64,000 bases of DNA, from NCBI RefSeq assembly GCF_051903065.1, contig NZ_CP178438.1. One strand, written 5' to 3'. Both the position numbers and the translations under genes were made by a program. Every line of letters begins with the position of its first letter. The first letter of the stretch is position 1. Below are positions 44,136 to 55,617 of the stretch, in pieces. Source of the DNA: Escherichia coli (lineage in GTDB: Bacteria > Pseudomonadota > Gammaproteobacteria > Enterobacterales > Enterobacteriaceae). Below the pieces are notes generated by a model. It searched no databases. It was not told the origin of the DNA and was given only the letters and a program-made list of their open reading frames with translations.

Positions 44136-44498
44136 GGGGCTGATTCTGGATTCGACGGGATTTGCGAAACCCAAGGTGCATGCCGAGGGGCGGTTGGCCT
44201 CGTAAAAAGCCGCAAAAAATAGTCGCAAACGACGAAAACTACGCTTTAGCAGCTTAATAACCTGCTTAGAGCCCTCTCTCCCTAGCCTCCGCTCTTAGGA
44301 CGGGGATCAAGAGAGGTCAAACCCAAAAGAGATCGCGTGGAAGCCCTGCCTGGGGTTGAAGCGTTAAAACTTAATCAGGCTAGTTTGTTAGTGGCGTGTC
44401 CGTCCGCAGCTGGCAAGCGAATGTAAAGACTGACTAAGCATGTAGTACCGAGGATGTAGGAATTTCGGACGCGGGTTCAACTCCCGCCAGCTCCACCA
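44136..44498 (+). ncRNA. ssrA: tmRNA (transfer-messenger RNA)
   Basis: 363 nt from GGGGCTGATTCTGGATTCGACGGG to ...GGTTCAACTCCCGCCAGCTCCACCA; tag-ORF region present. Confidence 0.97.
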
Positions 44499-45417: not shown

Positions 45418-46518
45418 TTATTCCATTTCAAGATCATCAATCTTCACTTCGAGTTCAATACTGGTTGTAAAACCGTTATCCGGGCTGACGGTATGTGTCA
45501 GAGTCGTAATGGTCCATTCCGCATCATCTATCGGCTGTTTAAAGCCACTGACTTTCACTGGCATTTCCGTGTAGAGATCTGCCCGACCTTCCGCCAGTTG
45601 TAGCGAGAATGACGCAACGCCGCGTTGCAGGCGTTCCCACTGCATTTTCGCTGCCCGTTCAGCGTTGCTCCGGTTGGCATAAGTGCGATTAAGTACCAGC
45701 ACGTTTTCATCCGTACCCACCAGGTAATCGCCCTGCTTTGCTTCCGGCTCTTTCTTCTGCTTTGCGGTCCTGCGCTTACGCTTCACCGTGGTGCTTTCTT
45801 TCTTCGCGGGTTCGCGGGTATGCAACCAACTGGCAATTACGCCCGTATAGGCTCCGCGATCTGCCAGGGTAAAGCGGTGACTGTCGCCGTCCTTGCGTGT
45901 GATAGTGATCACCGGCAGAGGTTTACCGCTGGCGCTTTTGCCCTGTCCCTGCCGGATGAATAACAGATTGCCATTTTTCACCGACGCAATAGCACCGTAC
46001 TGGCGCGCCAGCCGCATCAGAAAACTGCCGTCACTCTCATTGGTCTGGTCTATATGTTCCACGGGCTTATCCGACAGGTCTTTACCCAGTGCCATCTTCA
46101 GCTTGTGCCGCGCGGCTATTTCCTTCACCACTTCCCCGACGGTGGTCTTGTGCCACGACTTTTCACGACGGGTATTCAGCGTTTCCCGAAAATCAGCACT
46201 TCGCGCCCGGATAGTCAGGCGGTCCGGTGCGCCAGTGTGTTCAATCTCGTCCACCGTGAATGCCCCTTTAGGGAAAAGCGGCTGCCCCTTCCAGCCCAGC
46301 GCCAGCGTAATGACCGCACCACGGCGCGGCAGCACGATTTTTCCGTCGGCGTCGTCCAGCTCCAGATCAAGCTGGTCCGCTTCAAAGCCCCGATTGTCCG
46401 TCAGAGTCAAACTCATCAGGCGGTTATCCAGCACAGTGGTGATATCCCTGCCCTCAATACTGATGCTGAATGCGGGAGTTTTGTTGCCTTTGTTAAGCAG
46501 TTCAGAGCTGAAATTCAC
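45418..46518 (-). CDS. D: tail protein D (P2 gpD-like)
   Basis: 366 aa at the position downstream of U; overlapping stop/start with U. Confidence 0.8.
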   Translation of the reverse strand: MNFSSELLNKGNKTPAFSISIEGRDITTVLDNRLMSLTLTDNRGFEADQLDLELDDADGKIVLPRRGAVITLALGWKGQPLFPKGAFTVDEIEHTGAPDRLTIRARSADFRETLNTRREKSWHKTTVGEVVKEIAARHKLKMALGKDLSDKPVEHIDQTNESDGSFLMRLARQYGAIASVKNGNLLFIRQGQGKSASGKPLPVITITRKDGDSHRFTLADRGAYTGVIASWLHTREPAKKESTTVKRKRRTAKQKKEPEAKQGDYLVGTDENVLVLNRTYANRSNAERAAKMQWERLQRGVASFSLQLAEGRADLYTEMPVKVSGFKQPIDDAEWTITTLTHTVSPDNGFTTSIELEVKIDDLEME

Positions 46519-47000
46519 GACAGCAGCCCTCCCACCGTTTTACTGATATCACTTAAGGCAGATGTTGCCGTGTCCTGCAGATTATTCAGTTGCGTACTGA
46601 GATCACCGAACATATCGGACAGGGATTCATCCACCCGTTTGAGCGACAGGGTGAACTCAATCCGGCGCGGCATACCGTCGCGGAAAAACTCCGTTTTAGT
46701 CAGATTCAGTCCCTCAATCACATACATGCCGTAAATCGTGCCGCTGCCTTCAATCAGGGGCCATGCTTTTCCCTGTTCTGCCATCTGCTCCAGAGCCAGC
46801 AACGACAGCCTGCCGCCCGTTATCTCCGGCATAAGAACACCAGAAAGCGTCAGCATGTCGTTGTCCGGTCCCAGAAACTGCGTGGACGGACGACGGTTTA
46901 CCCGGCTGTTTGCCGCATGTCGCCAGCTGCGTTGATACTGCAGTTCCTGATACGGAACGGTGCGCAGCATAAACACGTACAATCCCAGCACCATCATCAT
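46515..47000 (-). CDS. U: tail protein U (P2 gpU-like)
   Basis: 161 aa, position and size as P2 gpU; 4-nt overlaps with T and D. Confidence 0.8.
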   Translation of the reverse strand: MMMVLGLYVFMLRTVPYQELQYQRSWRHAANSRVNRRPSTQFLGPDNDMLTLSGVLMPEITGGRLSLLALEQMAEQGKAWPLIEGSGTIYGMYVIEGLNLTKTEFFRDGMPRRIEFTLSLKRVDESLSDMFGDLSTQLNNLQDTATSALSDISKTVGGLLS

Positions 47001-50000
47001 GCGTCGTATCCCCCCTGATCGCTGTAGTTACTCCTGGCTTTTGCCTTCAGCCTGCGTTCACGTTCATCAAGCTGGCGTGCCACCTCCCGCGCAATATCCT
47101 GCGCACTTTGTCCTGGCTGCGTCTGAATGATGATCTGCGTCGGTGCCTCAATCCGGTGAACGGGCGGCACAGTGGCTGCACGACTCACCATCGCTTCGCC
47201 GCCTTTCGCGGGAAGTGCCAAAGGATGCAACGGTGGAAGCTCTGCAGGCGCGGCAGCAACGCCCATCATTCCGGCAACAACGGCAGCCAGTGCAGCTGTA
47301 TTTCTCCGGCTGGTCACATTTGCCGGGCCGTTAACAATTTCCGGCCCGTTTTCACCGACGATGCCAAACTGCCCGCGCGGGATATAGCCGCCGCTGTCAT
47401 ACATCCCCGCAAAGCCATATCCCCATGACGGAAAACCACCCGGTGGCATCATCACTTTACCGTCTGCATTCACCGTCGCAGGTTGCTGACGCGTCACTCT
47501 TTCCGGCAGTTTCGCCTTTGCAGCCTCTTTACTGACAATGCCGAGTTTCTCCAGCAACCAGGAAACGCCGGATTTCAGGGAGTCCAGCGGATGCATGACC
47601 ATATTCAGCCCTTCCGCCAGTGCCTCCCCGAATCGTCGCCCCATTGCCGCTGCGCTCTGCAGTTCGGCAGAGGTCGACTTAACGGGCGTCAGCAGATCAG
47701 TAAACCAGCCCCACAACGCCTGCACTTTGTCGCCAATCCACTGAAACACAGGCTTAAGTGGTTCGAATGCTGCACTGATGGGACCTGCCGCCGCTTTGAA
47801 TCCTTCCACCACACCAGCGAGAAATGCGGTGATGGGTTGCCAGTATTTCCAGACAACCAGCGCCACGCCCGCCAGTGCAGTAACCACAAGACCTATCGGA
47901 CTGAGCAGAGCACCTAACAGACCAGATATGGCATACAGGGCAACGCGCAGCATCGCCAGCGGACCAGATGCAAGCACACGAAGCACCGCGCCTGCGGCAG
48001 CCAGTCCACCGCGCAGTACCGCCAGAGGATTCATAAACATCACAGCAACCGCACGTAAACCGGATAATCCAGACCGCAATAGTGCAACCGGCGCACCTGC
48101 TACAGTTTTCAGGACATTTCCCGTCAGTGATGCCGTACGGCGCAAAGACGACAACGGCGCAGTAAGTAAACCCGCTGCGTTACCCGATGAAGCAAGCCCG
48201 CGTCGCAGCACTGCCAGTGGTGCGCCTGCCAGCCAGGACAAAGCGTTGCTGGTTCGGGTTACTGCTGCCGTAACGGAAGGTAACGTTTTGATACCCAGCA
48301 CAGAGAGTCCCAGACGGATGACTGCCAGCGGCCCCAGCACTGCAGCCAGCGCCACCGCTAAGGTGCCGAGGCCCACGGTAACGGCAGCCACCACTGCGGC
48401 TACTTTCATCAGAGTGCCCGTCAGTTCCGGGTTAGCTTCCACCCAGCGACGCAACGCCCCCGTGACGCTTTTCACCGTGTACAGAATATCCATCAGCGGC
48501 TGGCGCAGCGTTTCGCCCAGGCTGCTGAAGGTGTTCTGTGCTCCGGTTTTGACCAGCAACCACTGAGCAGAAAGTGAGTCTTTGTTGATGTCGGATTCTT
48601 TCTGCATGGAGCCGAGCGCATCATTGCCCGCAGTCAGTTTTAGCTGGCGCTGTAGTTCCGGCAGGTTGTTTGCCAGTTTCGCCGCGTCATCGCCAAACTC
48701 TTTACCAAACAACATGGTCATGGCAGACAGACGCTTATCCTGCGGCAGTGCGTTCACCTTCTCCAGCACACGCTGGATAGTTCCCATCGCATCCTTCGTC
48801 ATCTGCTTTTCAATCACTTCAGGATTGAGTTTCAGCAGATTCATCCCTTCAAAGAAACTCTTGCTTTGCATGGTGGCAATGGACAATTCACGCACCATCG
48901 CGTTTGCTGCACTGGCTGCAACCTCCGGCGCAGCGCCCAGTGTCAGAAAGGTGGAACCCAGTGCCGCAGCTTTACGATAATCCAAACGGTCAGCCACACC
49001 ACCCAGGCGTTGCATGACATCAATAATGTCCGCCCCTTTCGACATGGCGTTATCATCCAGATAGTTCAGCGCATCACCGAGCTGTTCAATATTGCGGGTA
49101 GGGATTTTGTAGAGCTGGGCGATTTTCCCCAGACTTTCTGACAGTTCATCCGCTGGCAGCTCAAAGGCTGTTGCCGCCTTTGCTGCCGTACTGGCGAAGG
49201 CCAGCAGGTCACGTTTCTGGTCCTCCCAGCTGTCGTCAGGGTTTGCGACGTTCATGCGCGCCCCACCTTCAACCAGTGCAGCGAAATCCACCGCACCGTT
49301 TTCCATCGGCAACTGTTCGCTGGCAGCCTTGATGGCATCCTGCATTTCATAAAAACGTGCAGTGGGGTTGCCATTATCGTCACGCAGACCATTGACCTGC
49401 TTTGCCACACCTTTCATGGCATCTTCCATGCTGGTATAGATTTTTACTGCCGCCATCACTGGTGCGCCCATTGCCAGCCCTGCAGCCGTGGTGGTGGCTC
49501 CGGCACCTGCAATACGATCACGCACCTCCAGCGAACGGGCATAACTGGCACGCGCTGCATTCATCCTGCGCTGAGCTTCCCCCAGTCGCTTCAGCCGCGC
49601 CTCCTGTTTCGAAAGTTCCTGGTTATAACGTGATGTTTCACGGGCTAAACGGGCAGTTGCTCCCGCATCATCTTTCGCAGAAATTCCCGCCCGGTACAGT
49701 TCAGCACGCACAAGCGCCGTTTGCTTCTGCAAATATTTTTGTTGTTCTTCCAGGCGTTGGACTGCCAGCGTTTGCCGACCTAAAGCCACAAGATGCCTTT
49801 GTGATGGTTGCTCCATCGCCTCCAGCTCAGAGCTAAGCAAATTAGCCTTCTGTCTGGCATAGTTCAGCCTGTCGCCTAACTTCTTGTTATCAGCCTGCAG
49901 CTTGCGAAATTTTTCCAGGCTGTTACCCGCCTGATTGAGTTGCTTTAATGCGTCACGGGAGTTTCTGATTGCGCCAGCCAGCTCTTTCGAACTGGCCTGT

Positions 50001-50074
50001 GCAGCACGGAATGGGCGGGTGAGTTTGTCAACCGCATTAAGAATGACCTGCAGGCGCAGGTTGTTATCACTCAT
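46997..50074 (-). CDS. T: tail tape-measure protein (P2 gpT-like)
   Basis: 1025 aa, coiled-coil N-terminal part, hydrophobic repeat region, C-terminal Gly-rich part; downstream of E/E'. Confidence 0.88.
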   Translation of the reverse strand: MSDNNLRLQVILNAVDKLTRPFRAAQASSKELAGAIRNSRDALKQLNQAGNSLEKFRKLQADNKKLGDRLNYARQKANLLSSELEAMEQPSQRHLVALGRQTLAVQRLEEQQKYLQKQTALVRAELYRAGISAKDDAGATARLARETSRYNQELSKQEARLKRLGEAQRRMNAARASYARSLEVRDRIAGAGATTTAAGLAMGAPVMAAVKIYTSMEDAMKGVAKQVNGLRDDNGNPTARFYEMQDAIKAASEQLPMENGAVDFAALVEGGARMNVANPDDSWEDQKRDLLAFASTAAKAATAFELPADELSESLGKIAQLYKIPTRNIEQLGDALNYLDDNAMSKGADIIDVMQRLGGVADRLDYRKAAALGSTFLTLGAAPEVAASAANAMVRELSIATMQSKSFFEGMNLLKLNPEVIEKQMTKDAMGTIQRVLEKVNALPQDKRLSAMTMLFGKEFGDDAAKLANNLPELQRQLKLTAGNDALGSMQKESDINKDSLSAQWLLVKTGAQNTFSSLGETLRQPLMDILYTVKSVTGALRRWVEANPELTGTLMKVAAVVAAVTVGLGTLAVALAAVLGPLAVIRLGLSVLGIKTLPSVTAAVTRTSNALSWLAGAPLAVLRRGLASSGNAAGLLTAPLSSLRRTASLTGNVLKTVAGAPVALLRSGLSGLRAVAVMFMNPLAVLRGGLAAAGAVLRVLASGPLAMLRVALYAISGLLGALLSPIGLVVTALAGVALVVWKYWQPITAFLAGVVEGFKAAAGPISAAFEPLKPVFQWIGDKVQALWGWFTDLLTPVKSTSAELQSAAAMGRRFGEALAEGLNMVMHPLDSLKSGVSWLLEKLGIVSKEAAKAKLPERVTRQQPATVNADGKVMMPPGGFPSWGYGFAGMYDSGGYIPRGQFGIVGENGPEIVNGPANVTSRRNTAALAAVVAGMMGVAAAPAELPPLHPLALPAKGGEAMVSRAATVPPVHRIEAPTQIIIQTQPGQSAQDIAREVARQLDERERRLKAKARSNYSDQGGYDA

Positions 50075-52397: not shown

Positions 52398-52964
52398 TCA
52401 GGGCGATTCATTGCTCTCATTCGCCGGAAATTTTCTATAAATGGTAGAAACGCCCACATCAAAAATCAGTGCAATACGCTGTCTTGATTCTCCGGCCTCG
52501 AGTAAACGTCCAATCTGTGCCCACTGTTCGGTGGTCAACTTAGGACGGCGTCCACCTACTCTGCCTTTGGCACGAGCTGCAGCCAGCCCTGCTCTGGTAC
52601 GTTCAACTATCAGTTCACGTTCCATTTCAGCCAGAGCCCCCATGACGTGAAAAAAGAAACGGCCCATTGGGGTACTGGTATCAATACTGTCAGTCAGGCT
52701 TCGGAAATTCACACCACGCTGGCGCAACTCTTCTATCAGCGTAACAAGATGCCGCATACTGCGCCCCAGTCTATCCAGCTTCCAGACAACCAGCGTGTCT
52801 CCTGCCGATAGTGTCCTGAGCAGTTTTTTAAGCCCCGGTCTGTCGGACTTAGTGCCACTGATTTTATCCTCAAAAATCCGCTCACATCCCGCGCAGTTCA
52901 GTGCATTACGTTGCAAATCGGTGTTCTGGTCATTTGTTGACACGCGTACATAGCCAATAAGCAT
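52398..52964 (-). CDS. serine DNA invertase (Hin/Gin/Pin family)
   Basis: 188 aa from ATG at 52964: MLIGYVRVSTNDQNTDLQ... with catalytic Ser region and C-terminal HTH (GVSTIYRKF); ORF-track upstream extension rejected. Confidence 0.9.
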   Translation of the reverse strand: MLIGYVRVSTNDQNTDLQRNALNCAGCERIFEDKISGTKSDRPGLKKLLRTLSAGDTLVVWKLDRLGRSMRHLVTLIEELRQRGVNFRSLTDSIDTSTPMGRFFFHVMGALAEMERELIVERTRAGLAAARAKGRVGGRRPKLTTEQWAQIGRLLEAGESRQRIALIFDVGVSTIYRKFPANESNESP

Positions 52965-53019
52965 GATCAATCCCCTGAATAAAAACCGGGGATGATGCCA
53001 GTTAGCCATTATCTCTGCA

Positions 53020-53045
53020 TTTTCTTAAACGTTGGTTTGGGAGAA
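53020..53045. repeat. hix/gix-like 26-bp inversion site (left)
   Basis: TTTTCTTAAACG-TT-GGTTTGGGAGAA; bottom strand reads TTCTCCCAAACC-AA-CGTTTAAGAAAA; shares 14 bp with the right site in inverted orientation. Confidence 0.75.
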
Positions 53046-53468
53046 GGTTCGGCATTACCCGTTGGTGTGCCTGTTCCGTGGCCTTCTGCAATACCGCCTA
53101 CTGGCTGGCTGAAATGTAACGGTGCGGCTTTTTCTGCCGTTGAATATCCTAAACTGGCGAGGGTTTACCCGACAAATAAATTACCTGATTTACGCGGTGA
53201 GTTTATTCGTGGCTGGGATGATGGGCGTGGAGTGGATAGTGGGCGCGCGTTATTATCAACTCAAACAGATGAATTTAAATCACATAGTCATTATTTCGAA
53301 AGAACATGGGCACAAACTGGATTTGATACAACAGGTGGATATTATCTTTTAGCCGCTGATGTTTCTGGCTCAGTAAATCAACAGAGATCCGATAGCACTA
53401 ACTCGGTGGGGGGGAGAGAATCTCGCCCTCGTAATATTGCATTTAACTATATTGTGAGAGCTGTGTAA
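53033..53468 (+). CDS. alternative tail-fibre C-terminal segment, promoterless in this orientation
   Basis: Frame continuous through the left site; encodes GLGEGSALPVGVPVPWP...LPDLRG...SHSHYF...NIAFNYIVRAV, the P2 gpH-type C-terminal pattern. Confidence 0.75.
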
Positions 53469-54073
53469 TGGATAATGCTGTATTAAATAGCGAACATATT
53501 GCTACGAAGGCTGGAAATGTTACTGTTTATAACTTTGACGGTGAAACGCGAGAGTATATTTCCCCATCTATTGAATATATTGCCGTTGGTGTCGGTATTC
53601 CGGCATATTCATGTTTAGATGCTCCTGCCACACGTAAAGATGGTTATGCTATTTGCCGTTCTGCAGGCTTAAACTCATGGGAATATATACCAGACCATCG
53701 CAGTGAAATTGTCTATAGCACTGAAACAGGAGAATCAAAAGAAATCACAGCTCTGGGGGATTACCCTGAAAATACAACCATTATCGCCCCATTAACGCCA
53801 TACGATAAATGGGATGGTGAGAAATGGGTGACGGATACCGAGGCACAGCGTAGCGCCGCAGTAGACGCGGCAGAAGCACAGCGCCAGTCGCTGATTGATG
53901 CTGCTATGGCTTCCATTAGCCTGCTTCAACTGAAATTACAGGCCGGACGGAAGCTGACGCAAGCAGAAACAACCCGACTAAACGCCGTGCTGGATTACAT
54001 TGACGCGGTGATGGCAACGGATACCAGCAACGCGCCGGGGGTTATCTGGCCAGTTCCACCTGAGATGGTTTAA
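53468..54073 (+). CDS. tail-fibre assembly chaperone (Tfa/gpG-like) for the alternative fibre segment
   Basis: 201 aa, start overlaps upstream stop (TAATG); C-terminal pattern ...TDTSNAPGVIWPVPPEMV typical of Tfa proteins. Confidence 0.8.
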   Translation: MDNAVLNSEHIATKAGNVTVYNFDGETREYISPSIEYIAVGVGIPAYSCLDAPATRKDGYAICRSAGLNSWEYIPDHRSEIVYSTETGESKEITALGDYPENTTIIAPLTPYDKWDGEKWVTDTEAQRSAAVDAAEAQRQSLIDAAMASISLLQLKLQAGRKLTQAETTRLNAVLDYIDAVMATDTSNAPGVIWPVPPEMV

Positions 54074-54225
54074 TCTCAATCAGAATGGGTTCGCCCTTCT
54101 CGTTAACAGATATTTCCATTCCTTCAGGGATTTCAGATGCAGTAAAAAACCAGTTATCTTCTGGTAATTCAACAGCCCCGGTCACGTCATGAAGACCGGG
54201 GATTACTTCAGTCAAAGTAACAGGA
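54042..54225 (-). CDS. short ORF downstream of H (possible truncated or non-canonical Tfa); uncertain
   Basis: Only about 61 codons are open after the H stop in this frame and no ATG with a clear RBS is present; the track's 95-aa ORF overlaps H. Confidence 0.25.
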
Positions 54226-55617
54226 TTAAACAGGCGCACAATAAACTCTCCAAGAAAAAGCACTTGTTGATGGTCTTCCGTCGTACATCTGGCAGCGGAC
54301 ATAAAAACCGGTATTAGTGACCTGGTCATCCACGATCATTGAAACGTGAACGTTATTAGATGTGCTCCCGTAATCCGTTCTTATTCTTTCCGCTATGCTG
54401 ATAAAACGTGAAAGCTTAGGTAGCGCAATTGGATAAACGACTTTAGCCAGTCCATTATCATTAGAACCACCCGTTCCAAAGACTTCTATTGCACCATCTG
54501 ACCAGCGTATCCATGCACCATTGGCATTAGCTCCTCGTTGAATGACATATCTGGCTTCTCCCAAACCAAGGTATGCGAGAAGACCAGCTACATCCTTTCC
54601 ACTCAAATTGGTAAGCGTATTGTCCAGCGGTTGTTTACCTGCCAGCGCATTAAGCATTGTCGTGGCAAAGTTCGGATCATTCCCCAGTGCCGCCGCCAGT
54701 TCGTTCAGTGTATCCAGTGCCGCAGGTGCAGAACCCACCATTGCTGCAATCGCTGATTTCACAAAAGCCGTGGTGGCAATCTGTGTATTGTTGACCGACT
54801 GTGCCGCAGTAGGTGCGGTTGGCGTTCCGGTGAGTGCCGGACTCGACAGCGGCGCTTTCAGTGCCAGTGCATTGTTAATGGTGGTACTGAATTTCGGATC
54901 ATTGTTAATGGCTGCGGCTATTTCTTTCAGCGTGTCCAGCGTGGCTGGCGCACCATTAATAAGAGCCGTCAGAGCCGCCTGAACAAACGCGGTGGTCGCA
55001 ATCTGCGTGGTGTTATTCCCTGCTGCTGGCGTTGGCGCTTTGGGTGTCCCGGTAAACGTCGGACTTTCTTTGGGTGCATACTGTGAATGCGGGTCCGGTG
55101 CGGCAAGATGTTTTGCCATCTGATCATCCGCGTACACCTTCAGCTCCAGTGCCTTGTCATCCACATACTTGCGGGTTGCCAGCACTACAGCAGGGTCGAT
55201 TTTCAGGGTGATATTGTCCGTGCTGCTGGTAATCAGCACCATGCGCACGGTCTGAGTGCGCCCGCTACCTTCAGCCAGTTGCGGCTTATAGCTTTCCGGG
55301 CAGTTGCCCACGGCAATCAATGCCTCGGACTCATCAAACAGGCCCACTTCACGAATCCACCAACCGCCCTCGTTTTCAGGGATCACCTGTTCGGCAATAA
55401 TCTGGCTGCTGTTCTGCGGGTCGATATAGAGCATATTCAGCGCAGCCCGGCGTTTCTCATTTACCAGTGCAGTCTGCTTTGAGTCTGGCGTTGGCAATAC
55501 TCCGCCGCCATCGCCGACCGCCATATGGGTAATTTTTAGCGGCACACCGAGCGCGGCGGCGCTGGCAAGTTTCGCCGCGCCAATATCCGTCAGCAGGGTA
55601 TAAAATTTTGTGCTCAT
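54226..55617 (-). CDS. H: tail fibre protein (P2 gpH-like), currently expressed variant
   Basis: 463 aa; conserved N-terminal part, two about 70-aa Ala/Thr-rich repeats, junction ...AYLGLGEA at the right inversion site, then a distinct C-terminal domain ending YCAPV. Confidence 0.88.
   Translation of the reverse strand: MSTKFYTLLTDIGAAKLASAAALGVPLKITHMAVGDGGGVLPTPDSKQTALVNEKRRAALNMLYIDPQNSSQIIAEQVIPENEGGWWIREVGLFDESEALIAVGNCPESYKPQLAEGSGRTQTVRMVLITSSTDNITLKIDPAVVLATRKYVDDKALELKVYADDQMAKHLAAPDPHSQYAPKESPTFTGTPKAPTPAAGNNTTQIATTAFVQAALTALINGAPATLDTLKEIAAAINNDPKFSTTINNALALKAPLSSPALTGTPTAPTAAQSVNNTQIATTAFVKSAIAAMVGSAPAALDTLNELAAALGNDPNFATTMLNALAGKQPLDNTLTNLSGKDVAGLLAYLGLGEARYVIQRGANANGAWIRWSDGAIEVFGTGGSNDNGLAKVVYPIALPKLSRFISIAERIRTDYGSTSNNVHVSMIVDDQVTNTGFYVRCQMYDGRPSTSAFSWRVYCAPV
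54546..54571. repeat. hix/gix-like 26-bp inversion site (right), inside H
   Basis: TTCTCCCAAACC-AA-GGTATGCGAGAA; 12-bp imperfect inverted half-sites around a central AA, close to hixL as recalled. Confidence 0.75.

What the first reader, a model, noticed from the sequence alone, without database searches (positions are those of the whole stretch)
54042..54329. Asymmetric invertible segment: expressed fibre variant lacks a full-length cognate Tfa
In Mu G and P1 C segments each alternative fibre tip is followed by its own ~180-200-aa Tfa. Here the silent arm has a 201-aa Tfa, but downstream of the expressed H only ~61 codons are open before running into the convergent Tfa gene, with no clear start. 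Either this tip (ending ...FYVRCQMYDGRPSTSAFSWRVYCAPV) folds without a classical Tfa, or a short chaperone is made by an unusual start or recoding, or this arm is decaying.
Basis: seen in the sequence. Interest (0 to 1): 0.5.

Follow-up and report, generated by a model that had tools for sequence, protein, structure and literature searches.

The report
Minimal tail-fibre chaperone lacking trimerisation domain
The gap after the expressed tail-fibre gene holds a real, conserved 65-residue gene that equals only the fibre-binding front half of the usual fibre-assembly chaperone, so this phage fibre tip appears to be made without the chaperone's supposedly essential back half.

Summary
The asymmetry is real. 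This is a Hin/Gin-type invertible segment (crossover sites 53020-53046 and 54555-54581) in a P2-like prophage. The silent arm has a collar-domain tip plus a 201-aa Caudo_TAP Tfa. The expressed arm has a 110-aa all-beta tip followed by a short ORF only.

"No clear start" is wrong. The ORF starts at GTG 54239, six bases after a GGAGAG Shine-Dalgarno. It overlaps the H stop by 14 nt and encodes 65 aa (54239..54042, minus strand).

The arm is not decaying:
- Homologues of 57-69 aa occur across Enterobacterales, with median dN/dS 0.13.
- The start codon is GTG or ATG at one fixed position.
- The same tip family lies directly upstream in 62 of 66 loci.
- Both orientations are seen in one prophage type.
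- In several non-invertible P2-like phages the ORF sits where gene G sits in P2 (I-H-small-FI-FII), with no Caudo_TAP gene detected.

A profile search links it to the N-terminal ~58 aa of two-domain chaperones whose C-termini are Caudo_TAP, Phage_tail_APC or DUF4376, next to fibres with the same tip family.

Best reading: a stand-alone Tfa N-terminal (fibre-binding) domain without the trimerising C-domain. Function is inferred, not shown. It is a new variant of a known kind, of moderate interest.

The parts
52398..53009 (-). Serine DNA invertase (Hin/Gin/Cin/Pin type). The ORF is 203 aa. The likely true start is the internal MLIGYVRVS..., giving about 188 aa as annotated in relatives.
   Evidence: Pfam Resolvase E 2.9e-53 plus HTH_7 E 1.7e-15. 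The PGAP homologue is a 567-nt 'recombinase family protein'.
53020..53046 (.). Left crossover site of the invertible segment, read as ..NVGLGE.. in the silent tip frame.
   Evidence: Inverted repeat I1: 27 nt, 81% complementary to 54555-54581.
53047..53468 (+). Silent alternative fibre tip with a phage tail collar domain. It has no start of its own.
   Evidence: Pfam Collar E 2.4e-14 on ORF 52992-53468. The reading frame is continuous from the crossover site.
53468..54073 (+). Classical two-domain Tfa of the silent arm, 201 aa.
   Evidence: Caudo_TAP E 1.5e-30; phrog_105 'tail fiber assembly' E 2.5e-92.
54042..54239 (-). The 65-aa gene, a stand-alone Tfa N-terminal domain. It has a GTG start, overlaps the H stop by 14 nt and overlaps the convergent tfa 3' end by 32 nt. 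Residues 1-56 are conserved; the last ~9 are variable.
   Evidence: Supported.
54246..54251 (-). Shine-Dalgarno GGAGAG, 6 nt upstream of the GTG, lying inside the W-R codons of H.
   Evidence: TGGAGRG is conserved in nearly all relatives.
54226..54554 (-). Expressed variable fibre tip, about 110 aa with the motif ..GANANGAWIRWSDGAIEV..FSWRVYCAPV*. It is an all-beta knob.
   Evidence: phrog_2557 E 2e-16. Weak Gp53-like_C match, E 0.11; the same family is recorded for the Yersinia (weak) and Hafnia fibres. AF2 gives an all-beta model.
54555..54581 (.). Right crossover site inside H, read as ..AYLGLGEA...
   Evidence: Inverted repeat I1.
54582..55617 (-). Constant part of tail fibre H, with a P2 gpH-like N-terminus and a repeated shaft motif.
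   Evidence: Pfam Phage_tail_fib E 2.8e-64.

Best explanation
The stretch downstream of the expressed fibre gene H encodes a real 65-aa protein (GTG 54239 to stop 54042, minus strand).

Shown:
- Its ribosome-binding site lies inside the last codons of H.
- Residues 1-56 form a small beta domain homologous to the N-terminal domain of modular tail-fibre assembly proteins (Tfa).
- The conserved C-terminal helical domain (Caudo_TAP) is absent.

From the literature: in those proteins the N-terminal domain is the fibre-specific, tip-binding module, and the C-terminal domain trimerises.

Inferred mechanism:
- The mini-Tfa is translated by coupling to H.
- It binds the side of the nascent C-terminal knob of H (the GxNANGxWxxWSDG...FSWRVY tip family), one copy per chain.
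- It protects or holds the knob while the knob trimerises on its own, so the trimerising half of the chaperone has become dispensable for this small all-beta tip.

The gene travels with its tip as one cassette. On inversion by the adjacent invertase, the collar-type tip and its classical 201-aa Tfa replace them.

Unknown: whether the mini-Tfa is released or stays on the virion.
For: Real gene:
- SD plus GTG start.
- GTG or ATG at the same position in 39 of 40 distinct relatives. The switch is coupled to Cys/Tyr in the overlapping tip codon.
- In-frame stops just upstream of the start in 8 relatives.
- Median dN/dS is 0.13 on the non-overlapping codons 6-55, from 35 distinct sequences with mean dS 1.5.
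- 141 homologues, all short apart from calls made from upstream starts (up to 90 aa), in Escherichia, Enterobacter, Salmonella, Citrobacter, Cronobacter, Kosakonia, Hafnia and Yersinia.
- AF2 mean pLDDT 89.9: five strands plus one short helix in residues 1-56.

Link to Tfa:
- A profile search of 1.84 billion proteins finds two-domain proteins whose first ~58 aa match the family. Their C-termini are Caudo_TAP (P0133 E 8e-12, P0141 5e-7, P0157 3e-4), Phage_tail_APC (P0142, with weaker sub-cutoff matches in P0144 and P0140) or DUF4376 (P0162).
- Their upstream fibres carry the same tip family.
- The best BFVD structural neighbours include proteins named tail fibre assembly protein, one of only 60 aa (weak, E 0.07).
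- hhalign places the family on residues 30-71 of a 146-aa Tfa, in its N-terminal part ahead of the C-terminal region shared with other Tfa proteins (weak).
- The published architecture of Pam3 gp25 and TfaMu is an N-terminal beta-sandwich of ~55 aa (2+3 strands plus a short helix) that binds the fibre, and a C-terminal helical domain that trimerises (PMC9608196).

Cassette behaviour:
- The tip lies directly upstream in 62 of 66 loci.
- Both orientations occur in one prophage type (L005/L006).
- Non-invertible P2-like phages have the order I-H-small ORF-FI-FII with no gene G or Caudo_TAP detected (L041, L043, L044, L047, L056, L062).
- A Cronobacter prophage has fibre plus small ORF followed directly by host genes.
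- A second N-domain subtype (MWYWNP...) also exists with the C-domain (P0141) and without it (L046, L042).
Against: - No experiment shows binding or chaperone activity.
- The tip-linker-small fusion model gave pTM 0.51, which neither supports nor excludes an interface.
- Pfam and NCBIfam have no model for the protein.
- Published models treat the C-terminal domain as the conserved core of Tfa function, so an N-domain alone may do something different.
- A Tfa C-domain could in principle be supplied in trans by another prophage.
Confidence: 0.7

Rival explanations
1. The small protein is real and tip-specific but is not a folding chaperone. It is a permanent tip subunit (a cap or adhesin) that modifies or masks receptor binding, while the small knob folds unaided.
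For: - Strict co-inheritance with one tip family.
- It lacks the domain thought to drive assembly.
- From memory: TfaMu forms a stable complex with its fibre, and T2-type gp38 stays on the fibre.
- The Alteromonas A5 fibre is functional without its chaperone (abstract of PMC10579305).
Against: - Nothing distinguishes this reading from the chaperone reading with the present data.
- Pam3 gp25 is absent from virions (PMC9608196).
Confidence: 0.17
2. The mini-Tfa supplies only tip recognition. The trimerising function is supplied in trans by the C-domain of another Tfa: the 201-aa one in the silent arm if it is transcribed, or those of other prophages.
For: - A full Tfa lies 0 bp away on the other strand.
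- E. coli genomes commonly carry several Tfa genes (many 'tail fiber assembly protein' annotations).
Against: - Non-invertible phages and a Cronobacter prophage carry the tip and mini-Tfa with no Caudo_TAP in the locus.
- L046 and L042 have mini-Tfa genes in both arms and no Caudo_TAP.
- No sigma-70-like promoter stands out for the silent arm: 3 sites found against 4.7 expected.
Confidence: 0.07
3. The arm is decaying and the ORF is the stump of a deleted Tfa with no function.
For: - It is N-domain only and ends in a variable tail read from the antisense of the neighbouring gene.
- phrog_5400 aligns it to positions 1-66 of a 145-position profile.
Against: - Median dN/dS is 0.13.
- Length and start codon are conserved over eight genera.
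- It is the sole partner gene in complete-looking P2-like phages.
- The tip-plus-small-ORF module is present in 105 of 5426 complete E. coli genomes.
Confidence: 0.03
4. The small frame is expressed by recoding, as a +1 frameshift fusion to the end of H, not as a separate protein.
For: The small frame is open for 32 codons upstream of the GTG in this window.
Against: - SD and ATG/GTG are conserved at one position.
- A stop lies 1-5 codons upstream in 8 relatives.
- No slippery motif is visible in TTTATTGTGCGCCTGTTTAA.
Confidence: 0.03

Closest known systems
Two-domain tail fibre assembly proteins (Tfa; Pfam Caudo_TAP PF02413): Mu U/U' (TfaMu), P2 gpG, lambda Tfa, cyanophage Pam3 gp25
   Same: - The gene lies immediately downstream of the fibre gene and moves with its tip in the invertible segment.
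- The N-terminal ~56-aa beta domain is homologous to the N-domain of some Caudo_TAP proteins.
- The predicted strand and helix count matches the published gp25 N-domain description.
   Different: - The conserved C-terminal helical (trimerising) domain is missing entirely.
- There is no Caudo_TAP match.
- The protein is 65 aa rather than 130-200 aa.
Mu G / P1 C / e14 P invertible fibre segments with Gin/Cin/Pin invertases
   Same: - A serine invertase lies next to the segment.
- The imperfect inverted crossover sites include one inside the fibre gene.
- There are two convergent tip-plus-partner cassettes.
- Both orientations occur in nature.
   Different: - The arms are unequal: about 1.03 kb (collar tip plus 201-aa Tfa) against about 0.53 kb (knob tip plus 65-aa mini-Tfa).
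- The convergent partner genes overlap by 32 nt.
Short proteins annotated 'tail fiber assembly protein', such as the 60-aa F4N9V0 of Pantoea phage LIMEzero
   Same: Similar size, and among the best structural neighbours in BFVD (prob 0.94, TM 0.51-0.53).
   Different: - The match is weak (E 0.07, 26% identity).
- The host phage is a podovirus.
- I found no study of its function.
Intramolecular C-terminal chaperone domains of fibres and spikes (Peptidase_S74; T5 pb1, K1F endosialidase)
   Same: They would also explain a fibre without a separate full-length Tfa.
   Different: - H has no such domain.
- Pfam finds none.
- The variable tip is only ~110 aa and is predicted all-beta.

Membership tests
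Tfa / Caudo_TAP (PF02413) tail fibre assembly proteins | Conserved C-terminal Caudo_TAP (helical, trimerising) domain ending in ..D(I/V)xWPxxP.. | tested here: not met
   - No Pfam hit for the 65-aa or the 95-aa form, nor for any of 24 family members.
- The protein ends 9 residues after the N-domain.
Tfa / Caudo_TAP (PF02413) tail fibre assembly proteins | Fibre-specific N-terminal beta domain of ~55-60 aa | tested here: met
   - The family profile matches the N-terminal 58 aa of proteins that carry Caudo_TAP: P0133 E 8e-12, P0141 5e-7, P0157 3e-4.
- AF2 gives 5 strands plus 1 short helix at pLDDT 89.9.
- The Pam3 gp25 N-domain is described the same way (PMC9608196).
Tfa / Caudo_TAP (PF02413) tail fibre assembly proteins | Gene directly downstream of, and co-inherited with, the fibre tip it serves | tested here: met
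   - 14-nt overlap with the H stop.
- The same tip family lies upstream in 62 of 66 loci.
- The gene sits where gene G sits in P2, in non-invertible P2-like phages.
Tfa / Caudo_TAP (PF02413) tail fibre assembly proteins | Binds the fibre C-terminus and is required for its trimerisation or solubility | not testable with these tools
   The single-chain fusion AF2 model gave pTM 0.51, which is inconclusive. No multimer tool or experiment was available.
Structural similarity to solved Tfa N-domains (TfaMu 5YVQ, Pam3 gp25) | Significant fold match | tested here: inconclusive
- Foldseek against the PDB gave a best E of 0.9.
- In BFVD the best hits include Tfa-annotated proteins, but at E 0.07.
Gin/Hin/Cin/Pin invertible fibre segment | Serine invertase adjacent to the segment | tested here: met
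   Resolvase E 2.9e-53 and HTH_7 E 1.7e-15.
Gin/Hin/Cin/Pin invertible fibre segment | Inverted ~26-bp crossover sites, one inside the fibre gene at the constant/variable boundary | tested here: met
   - 53020-53046 and 54555-54581 are 81% complementary, with a matching central dinucleotide.
- Homology to relatives with other arms breaks at this point (query positions 670-681).
Gin/Hin/Cin/Pin invertible fibre segment | Both orientations found | tested here: met
   - L005 versus L006 are the same prophage type in opposite states.
- Many loci of each state appear.
Gin/Hin/Cin/Pin invertible fibre segment | Fis-dependent enhancer in the invertase gene | not tested
   Not examined.
Intramolecular chaperone (Peptidase_S74) fibres | C-terminal autoproteolytic helical chaperone domain in the fibre itself | tested here: not met
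   - No Pfam match on H.
- The tip is ~110 aa and predicted all-beta.

The most novel reading that the evidence does not exclude
N-domain-only Tfa proteins may be a recurrent, unrecognised class of fibre partners. At least two subtypes exist, MRLFNP... and MWYWNP.... On this reading they work without any trimerising domain and stay on the virion as a tip cap that co-determines host range. The conserved C-terminal domain, currently regarded as the core of Tfa function, would then be dispensable for a whole family of knob-type tips.
Probability: 0.2. Interest if true: 0.65.

Novelty: new variant of a known kind. Interest (0 to 1): 0.5.

Why it matters
Current models hold that the conserved C-terminal domain of Tfa proteins is what drives fibre trimerisation, and that the variable N-domain only provides targeting (TfaMu and Pam3 gp25; PMC9608196). 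This family is a natural, strongly conserved version that keeps only the targeting domain. In some P2-like phages it is the only fibre partner gene. That gives a simple system of about 110 aa of tip plus 65 aa of partner for asking what the N-domain does alone.

There are two practical consequences:
- These genes are currently annotated 'hypothetical protein' and are easy to drop when fibres are swapped. People who retarget P2-type phages, tailocins or phage-derived delivery particles need to carry this 65-aa gene along with the tip.
- Databases could name the family.

Tried and rejected
- The AlphaFold database library was not available.
- BLASTP of the 65-aa protein against the 145-aa chaperone of CP019275 was not significant (E 0.12). 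hhalign against the Hafnia 146-aa Tfa was weak (E 7.8e-4 but probability 25%). Both were superseded by the profile search.
- A single-chain fusion (tip, then a 25-residue Gly/Ser linker, then the small protein) with a paired alignment gave pLDDT 73.7 and pTM 0.51, with no verdict on an interface. A proper 3:3 multimer run with PAE is needed.
- Pfam, NCBIfam and PDB sequence searches gave no family for the small protein. PHROGs places it in phrog_5400, 'unknown function'.
- The 95-aa ATG form (54329) was rejected because relatives have stops just upstream of MRLFNP.
- Frameshift fusion was rejected for the same reason, and because the SD and start codon are conserved.
- The intramolecular-chaperone reading was rejected.
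- The primary TfaMu paper (North et al. 2019) is not in the library. Its conclusions are cited through PMC9608196 and otherwise marked as memory.
- Literature searches found no description of this family.
Full report
**Anatomy**

The finding lies in the tail-fibre module of a P2-like prophage, with sheath, tube, tape-measure, baseplate J, I and H genes around it.
- ORF 52398-53009 (minus strand) is a serine invertase: Resolvase E 2.9e-53, HTH_7 E 1.7e-15.
- The best inverted repeat in the region pairs 53020-53046 with 54555-54581: 27 nt, 81% complementary, with the same central dinucleotide.
- The right site lies inside H at ..AYLGLGEA... The left site is read as ..NVGLGE.. at the head of a start-less collar-domain tip (Collar E 2.4e-14).
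- The invertible segment is therefore about 1.56 kb with two convergent cassettes.
- The silent arm is the collar tip (53047-53468, +) plus a 201-aa Tfa (53468-54073, +; Caudo_TAP E 1.5e-30).

**The observation**

- H ends exactly as quoted.
- About 60 codons remain open after its stop.
- This frame runs 32 nt into the 3' end of the convergent tfa gene.

The asymmetry is real. The statement that there is no clear start is not correct.
- On the minus strand the sequence reads GGAGAG (54251-54246), TTTATT, GTG (54239-54237). This is embedded in the last codons of H (..W R V Y C A P V *), so the new frame begins 14 nt before the end of H including its stop.
- The product is 65 aa: MRLFNPVTLTEVIPGLHDVTGAVELPEDNWFFTASEIPEGMEISVNEKGEPILIEIKPSQVELAR.
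- NCBI's pipeline calls exactly this ORF as 'hypothetical protein' (WP_001236015.1/WP_001236016.1) in other E. coli genomes.

**Is it a gene?**

- A search of 5.8 billion protein clusters returned 141 homologues. Most are 57-69 aa, and the longer entries (up to 90 aa) are calls from upstream starts. They come from Escherichia, Enterobacter, Salmonella, Citrobacter, Cronobacter, Kosakonia, Hafnia, Yersinia and others, down to about 60% identity.
- Residues 1-56 are well conserved. The last ~9 residues vary in sequence and length.
- I gathered 66 loci carrying the gene. Among 40 distinct sequences, the start position carries GTG in 21 and ATG in 18. In the remaining one the GTG sits one codon upstream.
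- The GTG/ATG switch goes with Cys (TGT) versus Tyr (TAT) in the overlapping tip codon.
- Eight relatives have an in-frame stop 1-5 codons upstream of the ATG. This excludes the 95-aa ATG-54329 form and leaves almost no room for a frameshift fusion.
- On codons 6-55, which overlap no other gene, median pairwise dN/dS is 0.13 at mean dS 1.5, from 35 distinct sequences.
- AlphaFold2 on the family alignment gives a confident small beta domain: pLDDT 89.9, five strands and one short helix in residues 1-56, with a disordered tail.

The ORF is a protein-coding gene under purifying selection. It is not a decaying stump or a sequencing error. The identical layout recurs in 105 of 5426 complete E. coli genomes.

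**What does it go with?**

- In 62 of the 66 loci the same tip family lies directly upstream (..GxNANGxWxIWSDGAIE...FSWRVY(C/Y)APV*).
- The four exceptions are two loci cut at the contig end, one interrupted by an insertion, and one distant member where tblastn found no tip.
- L005 and L006 are the same prophage type caught in opposite orientations. In one, a 518-aa H plus a 198-aa Tfa are in the expressed position. In the other, a 463-aa H plus the small gene are. Many loci of each state exist. The cassette is therefore used, not merely stored.
- Several P2-like phages have no invertase and no Caudo_TAP gene within 4 kb (L041, L043, L044, L047, L056, L062). Their gene order is I - H (this tip) - small gene - FI sheath - FII tube, so the small gene sits where gene G sits in P2.
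- A Cronobacter prophage has a 227-aa fibre with this tip, then the small gene, then host genes.
- Yersinia Mu-like prophages have fibre, small gene and invertase with no second arm.

**What is it related to?**

- Pfam and NCBIfam have no model for it.
- PHROGs puts it in phrog_5400 (unknown function, E 4.7e-23). It gives a weak hit to a Tfa family, phrog_188, E 0.004.
- The family profile run against 1.84 billion representative proteins found 44 matches. Besides more short proteins, there are proteins of 123-192 aa whose first ~58 residues match the profile.
- The C-termini of these longer proteins are:
  - Caudo_TAP: P0133 131 aa, E 8e-12; P0141 132 aa, 5e-7; P0157 129 aa, 3e-4.
  - Phage_tail_APC: P0142, with weaker sub-cutoff matches in P0144 and P0140.
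  - DUF4376: P0162.
- The alignment shows one shared N-domain, and the short proteins stop at the domain boundary.
- The fibres upstream of P0133, P0141 and P0162 carry the same tip family: GSN(A/V)NGxYxI(W/Y)SDG....PISF...
- In L046 and L042 the second arm pairs a '..GSNANGWYEIYSDG..AEGY*' tip with a 71-aa 'MWYWNPIDCNEG..' protein. This is an N-domain-only version of the P0141/P0157 subtype. The C-domain is therefore absent in two separate subtypes, and these segments contain no Caudo_TAP at all.

**Comparison with what is known**

- For TfaMu and cyanophage Pam3 gp25 the published picture is a variable N-terminal beta-sandwich that binds the side of the fibre tip, and a conserved C-terminal helical domain that trimerises and is held to drive assembly. 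In gp25 the N-domain is Met1-Ala55, with sheets of 2 and 3 strands plus a short helix (PMC9608196; that paper summarises North et al. 2019, which I could not open).
- The protein here has the size, strand count and gene position of that N-domain, and sequence homology to N-domains of Caudo_TAP proteins. It lacks the C-domain, so it fails the defining Pfam feature of the family. I file it as a variant, not a member.
- Structural searches did not confirm similarity to solved Tfa N-domains:
  - Foldseek against the PDB gave chance-level hits.
  - In BFVD the best neighbours include proteins named tail fibre assembly protein, one of them only 60 aa (Pantoea phage LIMEzero), but at E 0.07.
- H has no intramolecular chaperone domain. 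There is no Pfam hit, and the tip is predicted all-beta.

**Mechanism**

Shown:
- The gene is conserved, starts inside the end of H, and moves with its tip.
- It is the N-domain of modular Tfa proteins.
- It can be the only partner gene in a fibre module.

Inferred:
- It is translated by coupling to H.
- It binds the nascent knob chain by chain and protects it while the small knob trimerises by itself.
- The trimerising half has therefore become dispensable.

Open questions are whether it is released or stays on the fibre, and whether any C-domain is borrowed in trans. A single-chain fusion model of tip plus small protein was inconclusive (pTM 0.51).

**Verdict**

The interpretation 'short chaperone from an unusual start' is the best supported, 'decaying arm' is refuted, and 'no classical Tfa' holds in the sense that no Caudo_TAP domain serves this tip.
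- I found no description of this family in the literature searched, and databases call it hypothetical.
- It is a new variant of a known kind, of moderate interest. It offers a minimal natural system for testing whether the conserved Tfa C-domain is needed, and a practical warning for fibre-swapping work.

Noticed in passing
window 44136-44498 (+): A tmRNA gene (ssrA, tag ANDENYALAA) lies just upstream of the first phage genes (gene D-like ORF 45418-46518, tape measure 46997-50074). The P2-like prophage therefore appears to be integrated next to ssrA. The window ends inside the prophage.
   Followed up: no
L071 (E. coli assembly labelled DH5alpha, NZ_CM135829.1 1351431-1352876); also E. coli W NC_017635.1 and L039: An IS3-family element is inserted exactly between H and the small gene. 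It clips the first codons of the small ORF, and PGAP then calls a 62-aa 'MCHY...' protein. This is a natural knock-out of the coupling that could be used to test function.
   Followed up: partly
L046 4001-4382 and L042 481-862: In these invertible segments both arms carry a knob tip plus an N-domain-only partner, of two subtypes about 32-34% identical. No Caudo_TAP gene is present in the locus.
   Followed up: partly
window 54042-54073: The two convergent partner genes overlap by 32 nt, so the last ~10 codons of each are read from the antisense of the other. The C-terminal tail of the small protein is variable across relatives. This fits an unconstrained read-through into the neighbour.
   Followed up: partly
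window 54761-54792 and 54983-55014: A direct repeat with 222-nt spacing lies inside H. It reflects a duplicated shaft motif (..TTAFV..A.. GAPA.LDTL.E.AAA..NDP.F.TT..NALA.K..).
   Followed up: no
L001 (CP019275.1, deposited as plasmid p13P477T-2, 37.4 kb circular): This record is a P2-like phage genome deposited as a plasmid. Its invertase is annotated as frameshifted. At the same position its expressed arm carries a different knob tip with a 145-aa Caudo_TAP chaperone.
   Followed up: no
L063 4298-5377 (-): A 359-aa membrane acyltransferase-like gene sits between the small gene and the sheath gene in one non-invertible P2-like phage. It is probably a lysogenic-conversion moron in the slot where P2 carries Z/fun.
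   Followed up: no
window 52965-53009: The invertase ORF as listed (203 aa) has a 15-codon N-terminal extension that reaches to within about 10 nt of the left crossover site. Relatives are annotated from the internal ATG (188 aa).
   Followed up: no
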